Source of the DNA: a virus
Virus record (IMG/VR): IMGVR_UViG_3300032156_000001
Coordinates: 32,001 to 96,000 of that record
DNA length: 64,000 bases
Direction: 5' to 3' (one strand)
Every line of letters starts with the position of its first letter. Positions within the stretch are counted from its first letter, which is position 1. The notes beneath the pieces were generated by a model that did not search any database, had not been told where the DNA came from, and saw nothing but the letters and a program-made list of their open reading frames with translations. A program made the position numbers and the translations under genes. Shown here in pieces: positions 6,510-10,358 of this stretch.

Positions 6510-8102
6510 ATGAACCGGACGCTGTTCAAGGGGAAGGGGTCCAGGGGCGCGCCGCCGGCCGACACGGTCAACGCGGCGGGCGGCGTGGCGTACAAGATGA
6601 CCGACGAGCAGGCGCTGGCCCAGCTGGCCGTGACGGGCTGCCTGTCGGACGTCTTCTACGCCAACGCGGAGATGCAGCTCGAGCAGGTCCTGGAAGTGGC
6701 GGCGAAGGTGCCCGCGGACTACGAGGCGCGGGTGGCGCTGTACGCCTGGGAGAAGGGCTACATGAAGGACATGCCGGCCCTGCTCTTGGCGCACCTGATG
6801 CGGCGCGACGTCGCGATGGCGAAGCGGGTCTTCCCGCGGATCGTCGTGAATGGCAAGATGCTGCGCAACTTCGTCCAGGTCATCCGCAGCGGGGTGACCG
6901 GGCGGAAGTCGATGGCCACGGCGCCGTCGGCGCTCGTGTCGGCGTACCTGGCCAAGCGGACCCCGCTGGAGCTCCTCAGGGACTCGATCGGCGACAAGCC
7001 CGACTTGGCGGACATCATCAGGCTGGCGCATCCCAAGCCGCCGAACGCGCAGTACCGCGCGTTCTACGCCTGGGCGCTCGGCAAGAAGCTGGACGCCGAG
7101 CAGCAGTCGGCGCTCCCGGAGATCGTTGCGGCGTACGACAAGATGTGCAAGACGGGCGTCCTCGATCTGGACGTAGTCACCAAGCTGCCGATTCAGATGC
7201 TCGGCAGCCTCAAGATGACCGACGACGCCTGGAAGAGGACCGCGGTCAACCTTCCCTGGCACGCGCTGCGGATGAACCTCAACGCGCTGGCCAAGCACGG
7301 CGTCTGGCAGGACAAGGAAGTCCTGCTCCGCTGCTGCGACAAACTGCGGGACCTCGAGACGATCAGGAAGGCGCGGGTCTTCCCGTACCAGCTCCTGATC
7401 GCCTACAAGATGACCGGTACGGACGTCCCGAACGAGCTGAGGGAGGCGCTGCAGGACGCCATGGAAGTGGCCGTCGAGAACGTTCCCGAACTGCCCGGCA
7501 GGACGTGGGTGTTCGTGGACGTCTCAGGCTCGATGCGCTCGCCCGTCACGGGAATACGCAAGGGGGCGACCACCGCGGTCCAGTGCGTGGACGTGGCCGC
7601 GCTGATGGCGGCCGCCATCCTCCGCCGGAACCGGGACTCCAACGTGCTGGCGTTCAACGACTCGGTCGTCGAGGGCTCCGACCGGATTGTGAACCGCCGC
7701 GACTCCGTGATGACGATCGCGGAGAAGCTGGCGGGGCGGCCGTCCGGCGGGACGAACGTCAGCGCGCCCATGCGCCAGCTGGTCGACCGGAACGAGCCGG
7801 CCGACACGGTCGTGTACGTGTCGGACAACCAGTCCTGGATCGATACCGCTGCCCATCAGTACGGGATGCAGGAGGCGACGGAGACCAAGCACCTGTGGCA
7901 GACGCTGAAGAAGCGCCGCCCGAAGGCGCGGATGGTCTGCGTCGACTTGCAGCCGTACCCCGACGCGCAGGCGCCGTCGTGCGCCGACACGCTCAATGTC
8001 GGGGGCTTCTCCGACGCCGTGTTCGACCTCATCGCCCTGTTCGCCAAGGGCGAGCTCACTCCCGACCACTGGGTCGGCGAGATCAGGAAAGTCCAACTGT
8101 GA
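6510..8102 (+). CDS. rsr: Ro60-related TROVE/vWA RNA-binding protein (Rsr)
   Basis: NAAGGVAY..LAQLAVTGCLSDVFYA, GYMKDMPALLLA, NGKMLRNFVQVIRSG, FPYQLLIAY; vWA VFVDVSGSM, GGT, VYVSDNQSW. Confidence 0.93.
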   Translation: MNRTLFKGKGSRGAPPADTVNAAGGVAYKMTDEQALAQLAVTGCLSDVFYANAEMQLEQVLEVAAKVPADYEARVALYAWEKGYMKDMPALLLAHLMRRDVAMAKRVFPRIVVNGKMLRNFVQVIRSGVTGRKSMATAPSALVSAYLAKRTPLELLRDSIGDKPDLADIIRLAHPKPPNAQYRAFYAWALGKKLDAEQQSALPEIVAAYDKMCKTGVLDLDVVTKLPIQMLGSLKMTDDAWKRTAVNLPWHALRMNLNALAKHGVWQDKEVLLRCCDKLRDLETIRKARVFPYQLLIAYKMTGTDVPNELREALQDAMEVAVENVPELPGRTWVFVDVSGSMRSPVTGIRKGATTAVQCVDVAALMAAAILRRNRDSNVLAFNDSVVEGSDRIVNRRDSVMTIAEKLAGRPSGGTNVSAPMRQLVDRNEPADTVVYVSDNQSWIDTAAHQYGMQEATETKHLWQTLKKRRPKARMVCVDLQPYPDAQAPSCADTLNVGGFSDAVFDLIALFAKGELTPDHWVGEIRKVQL

Positions 8103-8130
8103 CCACGTCGCTTGTGGGCGGCTCGCGTAC

Positions 8131-8165
8131 AGGGGCGGCAGCCACAACTGCCGCCCCTGCTTTTT
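8131..8165 (+). terminator. Rho-independent terminator after rsr
   Basis: AGGGGCGGCAG-CCACAA-CTGCCGCCCCT then GCTTTTT. Confidence 0.7.
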
Positions 8166-8202
8166 CCCGACTTCGCGGCAGCGACTCGCGGAAAGGGGTG
8201 AC

Positions 8203-8922
8203 ATGGAAGCGCAGTCGAAAGAGCAATTGGCGAGGGTGTTGGAAGAGTGGGCAAAGGCGTCGAGCGACGTCGAATGGTCGCGTCGGCAACTGCTTGTGAA
8301 GGAGGACAAGCTGAACAGTCTGTTGGCCGACGCTGTCAAGGCGATGGGCATCGGCGGTACGGAGCTGGCGAGTCTGGCTGGCGGTGAGGAAGCGACGGAT
8401 TGGGTGATGTTCGCCGGCGAGCTGGTTCCTGTGAGGACGGCCAGCGTCAACGGCGAGACGGCCCGCATAATGGACCTGACGGACATGGAACGGAGGGACC
8501 CGGAGAAGTTTGGGGCTGAAGCAGTGGGTCGATATCTGGAGAGCGGCATGCGGCCCGTGCCGGTGCCGATACCGGTATCGGCATCGCCGTTGACGGCGAA
8601 TCGGCTTGCTGCCGTCGGCGTGGCTCAGTCCGGCAAGGCGCTCAGCATAAACGCCATCGCACGCCAAGTGGGGAAGGACCTCGGGATACCGATGCCGGTT
8701 TCAGACAAGAGCGCGACTGCCAGCTCGCACGGCAAGCAGGCGAAGTTCACGCCGGCGGATAGGGCAGCCATCGACGCGCTCTATTTCCACAGGGATACCA
8801 TCCAGGAAGTAGCGCGGAGGTACAAGGCTGACGAGGCAGCGGCGTCTCGTTGGCTGGCCGGCATAGAAATGAAGCAAAGGGCCGCGGTTGAGAAGATCAG
8901 AAAGGAGTTGGGATGCCACTAG
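8203..8922 (+). CDS. hypothetical protein
   Basis: AAGGGG RBS, ATG at 8203; MEAQSKEQLARVLEEW. Confidence 0.65.
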   Translation: MEAQSKEQLARVLEEWAKASSDVEWSRRQLLVKEDKLNSLLADAVKAMGIGGTELASLAGGEEATDWVMFAGELVPVRTASVNGETARIMDLTDMERRDPEKFGAEAVGRYLESGMRPVPVPIPVSASPLTANRLAAVGVAQSGKALSINAIARQVGKDLGIPMPVSDKSATASSHGKQAKFTPADRAAIDALYFHRDTIQEVARRYKADEAAASRWLAGIEMKQRAAVEKIRKELGCH

Positions 8923-9308
8923 TTCTGAATGCGCCCTTCAGGGGGCGGCCGGTAGACCAAAACGCCGTGAAAGAACTGGAAACCGCGCAGTACCGGCGGG
9001 AGATGAAGGTTGCGGCAGCGGCCATGCAGCCGTTGCCGGAGGACGTCGTCCTGGCGGTCGGATTGACCTTCGTGTACGAACTCACGCCGGGATACCTCAT
9101 CCGAAGGCATCGGATATCCAACGCGCCGCCGCGCATCCTCGCGTGGCTCGCGCAAGTGGGGTTCCAGCCCGGTCGCGGGATCGTCGGCGGATCGTCCGGC
9201 CACGGGTCCGGCGGCGGTTCGGCCGGCCACGGAAGCGGAGGCCATTCGCCTGGCTGCGGAAGCGGCGCTCGGGCACTGAAACGGCGGCGGTTCGGCTCGT
9301 CGCGGTAG
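8913..9308 (+). CDS. hypothetical protein with Gly/Ser/His-rich tail
   Basis: AGGAG RBS; overlaps upstream stop. Confidence 0.5.
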   Translation: MPLVLNAPFRGRPVDQNAVKELETAQYRREMKVAAAAMQPLPEDVVLAVGLTFVYELTPGYLIRRHRISNAPPRILAWLAQVGFQPGRGIVGGSSGHGSGGGSAGHGSGGHSPGCGSGARALKRRRFGSSR

Positions 9309-9374
9309 GACGAAACATTCGTAGTTGACGGGGATGTTCGGTTGCAGTATCAGATAGGCTTGTGTGGAACTCGA

Positions 9375-9543
9375 GGTGAATGCGCGAGGGACTACATTTC
9401 GATGAGAAGGGGCCGGAGGCCCCACAGTGCCCGACGGAGCGCGCCGGTTCGCGGCGTCGGGGTTGTGCCACCGGACCTGGCCTTTGCGGATCCAGCGGTA
9501 ACGCGGGGCCTTGTAATGCTCGTCTCTCGCATGTGTCATCACC
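9375..9543 (+). ncRNA. Y-RNA-like element 1 (long insert)
   Basis: GGTGA/TCACC outer stem; AATGC; GCGAGGGAC/GTCTCTCGC inner stem; TACAT motif shared with the other copies. Confidence 0.6.
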
Positions 9544-9554
9544 CCGCTGTTTTA

Positions 9555-9685
9555 CGGCACGAATGCCTGGAGGGGACTACCTATCGGAGGAGGAGATGCA
9601 GGTGCGACTCCTGCCCGCCGGTCTCGATCCGGCGGTAGCTCAACAGCAGAGCGCCTAAAAAGTCTCTTCCGACTTCATCGTGCCG
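9555..9685 (+). ncRNA. yrlA: YrlA-type Y RNA with permuted tRNA-like domain
   Basis: CGGCACGA/TCGTGCCG stem; CGAATGC; GAGGGGACT/AGTCTCTTC; T-arm GCAGG-TGCGACT-CCTGC, closed acceptor-like stem CCGCCGG/CCGGCGG, D-arm TAGCTC..GAGC; followed by T run. Confidence 0.85.
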
Positions 9686-9757
9686 CCTTTTTTTTCGCTT
9701 GCTGTTGGCAGGGCGGAGCCGGGCCGGCGCCATGATGGCGCGCCGGCTCCGCAACAT

Positions 9758-10122
9758 GGGGGCGATCATAGAATCGACCCGACGTGAATGGGAGGAGTCG
9801 CGCGCCGAGGTGGCTCGGAGGCCTCGTTAAACACCGGGCAATGCAAACGTGCCAAGAACGACAAGTTCGTTCGCGGGGGCTTCGGCCTCCGCGCTGCTGC
9901 CTAATCGAACAGCGGCTAACCCCGCTCGCGCGCCCGGCCCGGGCGCGCGGGAAGATGACGGGCTGCCGCCCAGCAAGCTGGGCTAGGTCGGTGTACAACC
10001 GATGGAGTCGTGGGAAGCGACACGAGAGGCTTGCCGGTGGGCCGGACACAGACCATCGGACACGCGCGTAGAGGCTCGACCTGAAGCGGACGGGGACCCG
10101 AGTGCGAGTCTCGGCGCCTCCA
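9758..10122 (+). ncRNA. ssrA: tmRNA
   Basis: 5' GGGGGCGATCATAGAATCGAC; 3' T-arm CCGAG-TGCGAGT-CTCGG and CGCCTCC-A; G3-U wobble; tag ORF 9851-9904 AKNDKFVRGGFGLRAAA*. Confidence 0.92.
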
Positions 10123-10149
10123 CAAATTTGTGCAGAATCGTAGGTGAAC

Positions 10150-10211
10150 GGCTCGAATGCCGAGGGGGACTACACTTGAAATGTAAAGTCTCCCTCGATT
10201 TTCATCGAGCC
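10150..10211 (+). ncRNA. Y-RNA-like element 3 (short)
   Basis: GGCTCGA/TCGAGCC; CGAATGC; GAGGGGGACT/AGTCTCCCTC; TTTTCATCG. Confidence 0.75.
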
Positions 10212-10220
10212 TCCAACCTT

Positions 10221-10279
10221 TGACCCGAATGCCGTCCGGACTACATGGAAATGATGTCCGGCCACCTTTCATCGGGTCA
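10221..10279 (+). ncRNA. Y-RNA-like element 4 (short)
   Basis: TGACCCGA/TCGGGTCA; CGAATGC; CCGGAC/GTCCGG; GACTACA; TTTCATCG. Confidence 0.75.
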
Positions 10280-10297
10280 CCATTTCGCTAGCGTGAC

Positions 10298-10358
10298 GGC
10301 TCGAATGCCGGGATGACTACATTGCCTAAATGAACGTCATCCCAATTCTCATCGAGCC
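10298..10358 (+). ncRNA. Y-RNA-like element 5 (short)
   Basis: GGCTCGA/TCGAGCC; CGAATGC; GGGATGAC/GTCATCCC; GACTACA; TCTCATCG. Confidence 0.75.

What the first reader, a model, noticed from the sequence alone, without database searches (positions are those of the whole stretch)
6510..10358. Ro60 with an expanded set of five Y-RNA-like genes, one a YrlA tRNA mimic
Seen: a full TROVE-vWA gene, then five elements (9375, 9555, 10150, 10221, 10298) sharing outer stem-GAATGC-inner stem ending GAC-TAC...GTC-pyrimidines-TCATC-outer stem. Stem sequences differ but pairing is kept (compensatory changes such as GGTGA/TCACC versus GCTCGA/TCGAGC). Copy 2 has a permuted T-arm/acceptor/D-arm domain. Known: bacterial Rsr binds Y RNAs via a CGAA-containing stem, and YrlA RNAs mimic tRNA and are often linked to RtcB repair. 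Inference: five variants (long insert, tRNA mimic, three minimal) could be interchangeable adaptors for one Ro protein. No rtcB is visible in the window.
Basis: partly seen in the sequence, partly recalled or inferred. Interest (0 to 1): 0.8.

Follow-up and report, generated by a model that had tools for sequence, protein, structure and literature searches.

The report
Phage Ro60 with five Y RNAs
An uncultured 188-kb phage encodes one Ro60-type RNA-binding ring protein, five small partner (Y-like) RNAs and a ribosome-rescue tmRNA in one 4-kb cluster; the finding is real, but it is a fresh example of a known kind of system, not a new one.

Summary
One Rsr/Ro60 gene (6510-8102) is followed by five RNA modules at the stated positions. 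All five share an outer stem, GAAUGC, an inner stem ending GAC-UAC, a pyrimidine-rich bulge and UCAUC. The 5' signature occurs exactly five times in the whole 188-kb record (0.02 expected). The stems differ between copies but stay paired. With 20 related modules from other loci, 93.8% of cells pair against 63.9% in shuffles.

- **E2** is a YrlA-type tRNA mimic, but scores 39.5 bits, below Rfam's cut-off of 69.
- **E3-E5** are YrlB-like short hairpins.
- **E1** carries an unexplained 126-nt insert.

The record is a large phage with its own RNA polymerase. A tmRNA (9758-10125) sits between copies 2 and 3.

"Expanded" is relative. In about 190 loci with Rsr proteins 37-51% identical, 2-5 such modules per locus is the norm and the maximum is 9. 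They are usually packed among tRNA arrays, and Rfam's threshold catches at most one per locus. This phage has no tRNA genes and no RtcB, SmpB or RNA ligase.

Phage Ro60 with Y-like RNAs, and phages carrying Ro plus tmRNA, are published. This scan has also noted phage Ro60-like RNA arrays on other DNA.

Verdict: new member of a known kind, moderate interest.

The parts
6510..8102 (+). rsr: Ro60/Rsr protein, 530 aa (TROVE/HEAT ring plus vWA domain); the only copy in the phage record
   Evidence: Pfam vWA_Ro60 59 bits and TROVE 24.1 bits, both over cut-off. PDB 2NVO (D. radiodurans Rsr) E 3.8e-15 over residues 20-516, and phage phiLo Ro60 9KOP E 7e-13. 46% identical to the Myxococcus phage Mx1 TROVE protein. 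Single match in the own record.
8130..8165 (+). terminator-like hairpin (12 bp, 10 GC) plus T-run after rsr
   Evidence: sequence
9372..9546 (+). E1: Y-like module with a 126-nt GC-rich insert of unknown nature in place of the apical loop
   Evidence: 5' signature matched. The 9-bp inner helix 9384-9392/9522-9530 is the best of 400 downstream positions. UCAUC plus an outer stem paired at 6 of 7 positions. The covariance model cannot span it. The insert has no similarity to any relative, and its fold is no better than shuffles, z -0.6.
9556..9684 (+). E2: YrlA-type Y RNA. A Ro-binding stem carries a permuted tRNA-like domain: T-arm 9604-9620, acceptor-like hairpin 9621-9639, D-arm 9642-9656
   Evidence: Rfam YrlA 39.5 bits, E 1.4e-6, full-length alignment, but below the gathering score of 69. 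Model R2 35 bits, E 1e-6. Fold z -3.3.
9689..9696 (+). T8 run 4 nt after the E2 outer stem; possible terminator or 3'-end signal for an E1-E2 unit
   Evidence: sequence; inference
9758..10125 (+). tmRNA, one-piece. Acceptor stem with G3-U pair, tag AKNDKFVRGGFGLRAAA, 3' CAA instead of an encoded CCA. It is the only tRNA-like gene in the phage
   Evidence: Rfam RF00023 76.3 bits, cut-off 47. ARAGORN on the window and on the whole record, which gives 1 tmRNA and 0 tRNA.
10150..10211 (+). E3: short YrlB-like Y module (7-bp outer stem, 10-bp inner stem, 14-nt apical part)
   Evidence: Rfam YrlB 25.4 bits, below cut-off 97. Fold z -5.6..
10222..10278 (+). E4: short YrlB-like Y module (7-bp outer stem, 6-bp inner stem)
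   Evidence: R1 (built from E3 only) 29.4 bits, E 2.7e-6. Fold z -3.3..
10298..10358 (+). E5: short YrlB-like Y module (7-bp outer stem identical to E3, 8-bp inner stem of different sequence)
   Evidence: Rfam YrlB 23.7 bits. R1 47.7 bits. Fold z -4.4.
10375..10400 (+). terminator-like hairpin (7 GC pairs, UUCG loop) plus T-rich tail; closes the tmRNA-E3-E4-E5 block

Best explanation
This is the Ro60/Y-RNA ribonucleoprotein system of a large uncultured phage.

The single Rsr ring protein is expected to bind each of five co-encoded small RNAs through a shared handle. The handle is a 7-bp outer stem that continues into CGA-A-UG on the 5' side and CA-UCG on the 3' side, with a bulged A, a pyrimidine-rich asymmetric loop and a second helix closed by GAC/GUC followed by UACA. 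The parts beyond the handle differ, so they would give the same protein different partners or states:
- E2 carries a tRNA-like domain.
- E3-E5 carry short hairpins.
- E1 carries a large module of unknown nature.

By analogy with Deinococcus, Salmonella and Thermus phage phiLo, the likely partner is the host's PNPase or another 3'-5' exoribonuclease, which the RNP would direct to structured RNAs during infection.

The RNA genes appear to form two units: E1-E2, ending in a T8 run, and tmRNA-E3-E4-E5, ending in a GC hairpin with a T-tail. They are probably cut out of precursors by host tRNA-processing enzymes. That fits relatives, where the same modules lie 6-30 nt apart and often within 15 nt of tRNA genes.

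Shown here: the genes, the motifs, the covarying helices and the homologies. Inferred: binding to Rsr, processing, the partner nuclease and the role in infection.
For: **Protein.** Rsr is intact and Ro60-like over its full length.

**Five modules only.** The record holds five modules and no more, all within 2.3 kb downstream of rsr on the same strand.

**Covariation.** On the alignment of 25 modules from the window and viral relatives:
- 93.8% of cells are paired, against 63.9% in shuffles.
- 14 of 17 pairs show changes on both sides.
- The covariation score is 0.72, against 0.18 in shuffles (0 of 500 reach it) and 0.07-0.10 in slid controls.

**Known families.** E2 aligns end to end with Rfam YrlA, including the T-arm, acceptor-like stem and D-arm. 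E3 and E5 align with YrlB.

**Linkage to Rsr elsewhere.** The same handle sits beside Rsr genes and on the rsr strand:
- 278 modules on the rsr strand against 9 on the other, in 80 genome loci.
- 253 matches to the 5' motif against 0, in 80 metagenome loci.
- 503 modules in 150 loci overall.

**Published precedent.**
- Salmonella and M. smegmatis Rsr bind YrlA and YrlB. The M. smegmatis pair is processed from a single precursor, and YrlA is cut by RNase P (PMC4201824).
- Phage phiLo Ro60 binds two phage Y-like RNAs and forms complexes with host PNPase (PMC12135203).
Against: - No expression or binding data exist for this phage.
- E2 scores 39.5 bits against Rfam's gathering score of 69. E3 and E5 score 25 and 24 against 97.
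- E1 could not be scored by the covariance model, and its insert shows no conserved or unusually stable structure.
- No sigma-70-type promoter was found. The phage has its own RNA polymerase, so the transcription units are guesses.
- The covariation alignment was fitted to the model's structure, which favours pairing.
- No close relative of this phage was found. The best Rsr identity is 51%, so conservation of the five individual genes could not be tested.
Confidence: 0.8

Rival explanations
1. E3-E5 are not free-standing Y RNAs. They are cis-acting Rsr-binding hairpins in the 3' trailer of the tmRNA precursor. They would recruit Rsr and an exonuclease to mature or quality-control the phage tmRNA, and are then degraded.
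For: They start 27 nt after the tmRNA discriminator base, with no terminator in between. The first terminator-like hairpin comes only after E5. The tmRNA lacks an encoded CCA, so its 3' end must be cut and trimmed. From established knowledge: D. radiodurans Rsr assists exonucleolytic maturation of 23S rRNA.
Against: The same short modules occur in arrays in about 150 other Rsr loci, and only one of those sampled has a tmRNA nearby. Short YrlB RNAs of Salmonella and M. smegmatis accumulate as stable Rsr-bound RNAs, and the M. smegmatis one is processed from a shared precursor (PMC4201824).
Confidence: 0.1
2. The modules serve some factor other than Rsr, and their nearness to rsr reflects only a shared RNA-gene island. 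For example, they could be processing punctuation for polycistronic tRNA or tmRNA transcripts, recognised by RNase P, RNase Z or RNase E.
For: In relatives the modules are interleaved with tRNA genes, sometimes with 0-3 nt spacing (L029). 53 of 313 modules lie within 15 nt downstream of a tRNA.
Against: - The loci were collected through Rsr, and the handle motif is almost exclusively on the rsr strand there.
- The CGAA-containing stem is the element implicated in Rsr binding in characterised systems (PMC4201824; PMC12135203).
- This phage has the modules but no tRNA genes to punctuate.
Confidence: 0.05
3. Some of the five, above all E1 with its 126-nt insert and weakened outer stem, are decaying duplicates without function.
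For: - E1's insert has no homologue.
- Its fold is no more stable than shuffled sequence.
- Its outer stem has a mismatch.
- E3 and E5 share an identical outer stem, which suggests recent duplication.
Against: All five keep both helices through different sequences, and all keep every conserved single-stranded motif. E1's 9-bp inner helix is intact across 126 nt. Relatives also carry modules with 100-150-nt inserts.
Confidence: 0.05

Closest known systems
Rsr with YrlA and YrlB of Salmonella Typhimurium and Mycobacterium smegmatis (Chen et al. 2014, PMC4201824; Rfam RF02553, RF02565)
   Same: A Ro60 orthologue with at least two Y RNAs encoded within 4 kb. One long RNA has a permuted tRNA-like domain and one is a short hairpin. 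The handle contains CGAA. In M. smegmatis the RNAs are co-transcribed and processed.
   Different: Here there are five RNAs, in a phage. There is no RtcB/RtcA operon. The Rfam scores are below the gathering thresholds. The 3' side of the handle reads UCAUCG instead of the UUGUCG that dominates in relatives.
Thermus phage phiLo Ro60 with Yrl1 and Yrl2 (PMC12135203; PDB 9KOP, 9L5Y)
   Same: A phage-encoded Ro60 with phage-encoded Y-like RNAs next to the gene. The proposed action is capture of host PNPase. The protein matches at E 7e-13.
   Different: phiLo has two RNAs upstream of the gene. This phage has five downstream, plus a tmRNA.
Cluster C mycobacteriophages and Streptomyces BE-cluster phages (Ro-like protein, 30-44 tRNAs, one tmRNA; PMC9583779, PMC13191466)
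   Same: Large phages that combine a Ro-like protein with a tmRNA and RNA-gene islands. In phage NootNoot the Ro-like gene lies inside the tRNA region.
   Different: Protein identity is only about 24-25%. Those phages carry large tRNA sets and this one has none. Nesting of the tmRNA inside a Y-RNA array is not annotated in the NootNoot region I fetched.
Myxococcus phage Mx1 (OR576727.2)
   Same: It is the best-matching cultured phage, with a TROVE protein 46% identical over the full length. It also has a tmRNA on the same strand (117.7 bits).
   Different: The Mx1 tmRNA lies about 10 kb upstream of rsr, among many tRNA genes. My strict motif scan found no convincing module near the Mx1 rsr.
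Deinococcus radiodurans Rsr-Yrn1/Yrn2-PNPase (RYPER) complex
   Same: This is the working model used here: a Y RNA tethers the Ro ring to an exoribonuclease for structured-RNA decay. The protein matches PDB 2NVO over its full length.
   Different: Function is known only by analogy. Yrn1 has no detectable sequence relation to these modules.

Membership tests
Ro60/Rsr protein (TROVE + vWA) | TROVE (HEAT-repeat ring) domain and Ro60-type vWA domain at or above the Pfam cut-offs | tested here: met
   PF25045 scores 59 bits (cut-off 27.7). PF05731 scores 24.1 bits (cut-off 23).
Ro60/Rsr protein (TROVE + vWA) | Full-length sequence similarity to structurally solved Ro60/Rsr proteins | tested here: met
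   2NVO E 3.8e-15 over residues 20-516; 9KOP and 9L5Y E 7e-13; human and Xenopus Ro60 E 1e-14 to 2e-9.
YrlA (Rfam RF02553) | Score at or above Rfam's gathering threshold (69 bits) | tested here: not met
   E2 scores 39.5 bits, E 1.4e-6. Related bacterial loci give one hit each at 69-76 bits, and five viral loci give none.
YrlA (Rfam RF02553) | Stem carrying a permuted tRNA-like domain: T-arm, acceptor-like hairpin, then D-arm | tested here: met
   E2 aligns to all 114 model positions with all three arms paired. Its T-loop is UGCGACU and its D-loop is AACAGCA, without GG. This variant recurs in relatives.
Bacterial Y RNA as defined by Chen et al. 2014 | Encoded within 4 kb of the Ro60 orthologue | tested here: met
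   All five lie 1.3-2.3 kb downstream of rsr on the same strand.
Bacterial Y RNA as defined by Chen et al. 2014 | GNCGAAN0-1G motif near the 5' end | tested here: inconclusive
   E2-E5 have the core CGAAUG, and E1 has UGAAUG with a compensating A on the other strand. The leading G, two bases before the C, is a C in E2-E5, so the strict motif is not matched.
Bacterial Y RNA as defined by Chen et al. 2014 | Bound by Rsr in vivo, with stability dependent on Rsr | not testable with these tools
   Needs pull-down or Northern blots.
YrlB (Rfam RF02565) | Score at or above the gathering threshold (97 bits; the family is built on Salmonella sequences) | tested here: not met
   E3 scores 25.4 bits and E5 23.7. 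E4 is not reported. The architecture is the same: outer stem, AUGC, inner stem, UACAU...AUG apical hairpin, U-rich bulge.
tmRNA (Rfam RF00023) | Gathering score, tRNA-like ends with a G3-U pair, and a tag reading frame | tested here: met
   76.3 bits against a cut-off of 47, full length 1-374. ARAGORN gives a tag ending in AAA plus stop. The GGGGGCG/CGCCUCC acceptor stem has G-U at the third pair.

The most novel reading that the evidence does not exclude
Rsr and its Y RNAs may be a built-in component of mobile gene islands for tRNA-like RNAs. In this Rsr clade the modules are packed head to tail with tRNA genes, in arrays of 10-30 tRNAs in soil-bacterial MAGs and in large phages. In this phage they bracket a tmRNA instead, with no tRNAs at all.

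On this reading the RNP's job is to mature, proof-read or protect the co-encoded tRNA-like RNAs, for instance against host RNA-targeting defences. Different Y modules would address different clients.

Standard annotation sees at most one of the 2-9 modules per locus, so the arrays would be largely undescribed.
Probability: 0.3. Interest if true: 0.6.

Novelty: new member of a known kind. Interest (0 to 1): 0.4.

Why it matters
Bacterial and phage Ro60/Y-RNA particles are still poorly understood. Their substrates and the role of the tRNA-like domain are open questions.

This locus is compact and offers a clean test system. It has one Ro protein and five partner RNAs of three architectures, all sharing one handle variant (UCAUCG rather than UUGUCG). 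It has a tmRNA in the same block and no tRNAs, RtcB or SmpB to complicate matters.

The comparison with about 190 loci also shows that multi-copy Y-RNA arrays are the rule beside this Rsr clade. Threshold-based Rfam annotation misses most of them, which matters for anyone counting or annotating Y RNAs.

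Tried and rejected
1. **Single-sequence model R1.** With filters off it did not span E1 or E2. Model R2 found E2 but not E1, even when the search was restricted to 9355-9552. The 175-nt span probably exceeds the model's window, so E1 rests on motifs and helices only.
2. **MAFFT alignments.** Alignments of the five copies and of 19 short modules mis-registered the 3' strand of the inner stem. I therefore used model-fitted alignments (A6, A7) for pair counts.
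3. **My first loose descriptor.** It gave many chance hits and was replaced by a motif-anchored one.
4. **Similarity searches.** The E1 insert, the spacers and the two ORFs between rsr and E1 (8203-8922, 8913-9308) found nothing in relatives or elsewhere in the phage. Pfam found nothing in ten neighbouring ORFs.
5. **tmRNA.** It has no blastn match in 50,697 phage records.
6. **Close relatives.** Viral, genome and metagenome scans with Rsr gave at most 51% identity. Orthologous copies of E1-E5 could not be compared.
7. **Promoters.** No sigma-70-type promoter was found.
8. **Repair and rescue genes.** RtcB, SmpB, RNA ligase (PF09414) and CCA-adding enzyme (PF01743) are absent from the record.
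9. **Literature.** One search was wasted on a poor term. Two reviews (PMC10870794, PMC6542706) are not held.

Full report
**What is there.**

The window is bases 32001-96000 of a single 188,118-bp virus record.
- It has 66% G+C, and nearly all predicted genes lie on one strand.
- Its first ~139 bases are repeated at its end.
- It encodes phage-type multisubunit RNA polymerase pieces and an SbcC-like nuclease.
- Its Rsr protein is most like that of Myxococcus phage Mx1 among cultured phages: 46% identity over the full length.

So the setting is a large uncultured phage, not a bacterium.

**The protein.**

ORF 6510-8102 (530 aa) passes the Pfam cut-offs for vWA_Ro60 (59 bits) and TROVE (24.1 bits). 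It matches solved Ro60/Rsr structures:
- D. radiodurans Rsr (2NVO) over residues 20-516 at E 3.8e-15.
- Thermus phage phiLo Ro60 (9KOP).
- Human and Xenopus Ro60.

It is the only copy in the record. A strong terminator-like hairpin follows it at 8130-8165. Two ORFs without any family match (8203-8922 and 8913-9308) separate it from the RNA genes. They are not conserved beside Rsr in relatives.

**The five RNA modules.**

Reading the sequence and a motif-anchored scan give the same architecture for all five:
- A 7-bp outer stem.
- AUGC.
- An inner stem of 6-10 bp whose last three pairs are GAC/GUC.
- UAC(A/C).
- A variable distal part.
- A 5-10-nt pyrimidine-rich bulge on the 3' side.
- UCA, then the return strand of the outer stem.

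The pattern GAATGC-N5-12-GACTAC occurs five times in the window, where 0.02 is expected. It occurs nowhere else in the phage on either strand.

Outer stems are GGCACGA, GGCUCGA, GACCCGA and GGCUCGA for E2-E5, each with a perfect complement. E1 has GAGGUGA against UCACCCC, with one A-C mismatch. Inner stems all differ in sequence and all pair.

E2-E5 fold into exactly this shape, with z-scores of -3.3 to -5.6 against shuffles.

**Covariation.**

A covariance model built from E3 alone already finds E5, E4 and E2, plus modules beside Rsr in other viral contigs. A model built from E3-E5 finds E2 at 35 bits and 20 modules in viral relatives. On that alignment:
- 93.8% of cells pair, against 63.9% after shuffling.
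- 14 of 17 pairs change on both sides.
- The covariation score is 0.72, against 0.18 for shuffles (0 of 500 reach it) and 0.07-0.10 for slid registers.

The alignment is fitted to the structure, which inflates pairing somewhat. The slid controls and the number of pair types still make chance implausible.

**Three kinds of module.**

*E2.* It aligns to all 114 positions of Rfam YrlA, including the T-arm, acceptor-like hairpin and D-arm. It scores only 39.5 bits against a gathering score of 69. It is YrlA-like in architecture but not a member by Rfam's threshold.

Its T-loop reads UGCGACU, with G where tRNA has U55. Its 7-nt D-loop lacks GG. Among related modules, U55 goes with a GG-containing D-loop in 145 of 162 cases, and G55 in only 7 of 20. 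E2 therefore belongs to a recurrent sub-type. The phage tmRNA's T-loop is also UGCGAGU.

*E3-E5.* These resemble Salmonella YrlB, including the UACAU...AUG apical hairpin. E3 scores 25 bits and E5 24, far below that narrow family's cut-off of 97.

*E1.* It has the handle but carries a 126-nt GC-rich insert.
- The covariance model cannot span it.
- The insert matches nothing in 200 related loci or elsewhere in the phage.
- It folds no better than shuffled sequence.
- Its 9-bp inner helix is the best pairing among 400 downstream positions.

I accept E1 as a module, but its insert is unexplained.

**The tmRNA and the likely transcription units.**

A one-piece tmRNA lies at 9758-10125, between E2 and E3 (76.3 bits, cut-off 47).
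- It has a G3-U acceptor pair.
- Its tag is AKNDKFVRGGFGLRAAA.
- Its 3' end reads CAA rather than an encoded CCA.
- It is the only tRNA-like gene in the phage; there are no tRNAs.

A T8 run follows E2. A GC hairpin with a T-tail follows E5. I infer two units: E1-E2 and tmRNA-E3-E4-E5. No sigma-70-like promoter was detected, and the phage has its own polymerase, so this stays an inference.

The record lacks RtcB, SmpB, an Rnl-type RNA ligase and a CCA-adding enzyme. Host factors must therefore serve both the tmRNA and the RNP.

**Relatives.**

Rsr proteins 37-51% identical were fetched from 41 viral contigs, 80 genome contigs and 80 metagenome contigs. The genome contigs are mostly Acidobacteriota (Pyrinomonadaceae), with Verrucomicrobiota, Myxococcota and others.

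The same handle is present beside them, almost only on the rsr strand:
- 278 modules against 9 in the genome loci.
- 253 matches to the 5' motif against 0 in the metagenome loci.

Counts per locus run from 0 to 9, with 2-5 typical; 25 of 150 loci have exactly five. Most long modules carry a T-arm.

Modules are packed 6-30 nt apart in 151 of 353 neighbour gaps. 53 of 313 lie within 15 nt of an upstream tRNA. In L029 they abut tRNAs with 0-3 nt between them. These loci hold large tRNA arrays: 693 tRNAs in the 80 genome loci.

Rfam at its gathering threshold flags exactly one YrlA in each of seven bacterial loci and none in five viral loci. Most modules therefore go unannotated.

tmRNA is rarer in these records:
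- It scores over the cut-off in 3 of 10 other large Rsr-bearing phage records. One is Mx1, about 10 kb upstream of rsr.
- One metagenome contig has it 3 kb upstream of rsr.

In relatives the 3' side of the handle is UUGUC (309 cases). All five window copies have UCAUC, which does not appear among the twelve commonest variants. With the A after CGA bulged, this turns two wobble pairs (U-G, G-U) into U-A and G-C. The five copies thus share a lineage-specific handle variant.

**How it most likely works.**

By homology with characterised systems, the Rsr ring binds the handle and the distal module selects the partner.
- In D. radiodurans and Salmonella the partner is PNPase (PMC4201824).
- The phiLo phage Ro60, its two Y-like RNAs and host PNPase form such complexes in vitro (PMC12135203).
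- A Ro60-like phage gene upstream of tRNAs counters a host defence in Bas63 (PMC11482910).

I therefore read the locus as a phage RNP kit that redirects host exoribonucleases toward structured RNAs during infection. Five scaffolds of three types serve one protein, and the kit is co-expressed with a ribosome-rescue RNA. Binding, processing, partners and benefit are all inferred.

The main rival is that E3-E5 act in cis in the tmRNA precursor. I give it about 10%.

**Known or new.**

Already published:
- Y RNAs near Rsr in 254 bacteria and 22 phages, with multiple copies reported where found: 355 RNAs in 276 genomes (PMC4201824).
- Phage Ro60 with two Y-like RNAs (PMC12135203).
- TROVE proteins in jumbo phages (PMC7824862).
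- Phages with a Ro-like protein plus tRNAs and a tmRNA (PMC9583779, PMC13191466).

I found no paper that links Rsr/Y arrays with tRNA arrays. Earlier notes of this scan describe analogous Ro60-like proteins with several partner RNAs in other phages' tRNA arrays.

The window is therefore a new member of a known kind. Its particular features are five modules of three architectures, a tmRNA nested in the array, no tRNAs, and a private handle variant.

Noticed in passing
L050-L129 and L131-L210 (loci around Rsr homologues in bacterial MAGs and metagenome contigs): Rsr genes of this clade sit at the end of large tRNA arrays: 693 tRNAs in 80 genome loci and 468 in 80 metagenome loci. Y-like modules are interleaved with the tRNAs. 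Rfam's gathering threshold flags only one YrlA per locus, although 2-9 modules are present. I found no paper linking tRNA arrays with Rsr or Y RNAs.
   Followed up: partly
window 9604-9656 (E2) and YrlA-type modules in about 190 loci: T-loop position 55 co-varies with the D-loop. With U55 the D-loop contains GG in 145 of 162 modules. With G55 (UGCAA/UGCGA loops) it does so in only 7 of 20, and a 7-nt AGNAGYA-type D-loop appears instead. This suggests an alternative T-loop/D-loop elbow. The count is not corrected for relatedness.
   Followed up: partly
window 10090-10106 (tmRNA T-arm): The phage tmRNA's T-loop is UGCGAGU, with G at the position of U55. This is the same deviation as in E2 of the same phage.
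   Followed up: no
window 9536-9540, 9675-9679, 10202-10206, 10269-10273, 10349-10353: All five modules have UCAUC on the 3' side of the handle, where relatives have UUGUC (309 cases). UCAUC is not among the twelve commonest variants elsewhere. This could mean co-adaptation with this phage's Rsr, or recent duplication of the copies.
   Followed up: partly
window 9722-9752: A GC-rich hairpin (GGAGCCGG...CCGGCUCC) lies just upstream of the tmRNA 5' end, after the T8 run. ARAGORN starts its tmRNA call inside this region (9715), whereas Rfam starts at 9758. Its role is unknown.
   Followed up: no
G000:C1:1-140 and 187979-188118: The first ~139 bases of the record recur at its end. This fits a circular assembly or a short terminal repeat, although the record is classed as linear.
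   Followed up: no
window 49455-53495: A 1346-aa protein has an N-terminal DNA-helicase match (phrog_62, E 2e-39) and a C-terminal ATP-dependent DNA ligase match (phrog_114, E 1e-10). It looks like a helicase-ligase fusion.
   Followed up: no
L029:3660-7878 (IMG/VR contig 3300027917_000034): Six Y-like modules are wedged between tRNA genes with 0-3 nt spacing. Cuts by RNase P and the tRNA 3'-end enzymes would then release them with defined ends.
   Followed up: partly
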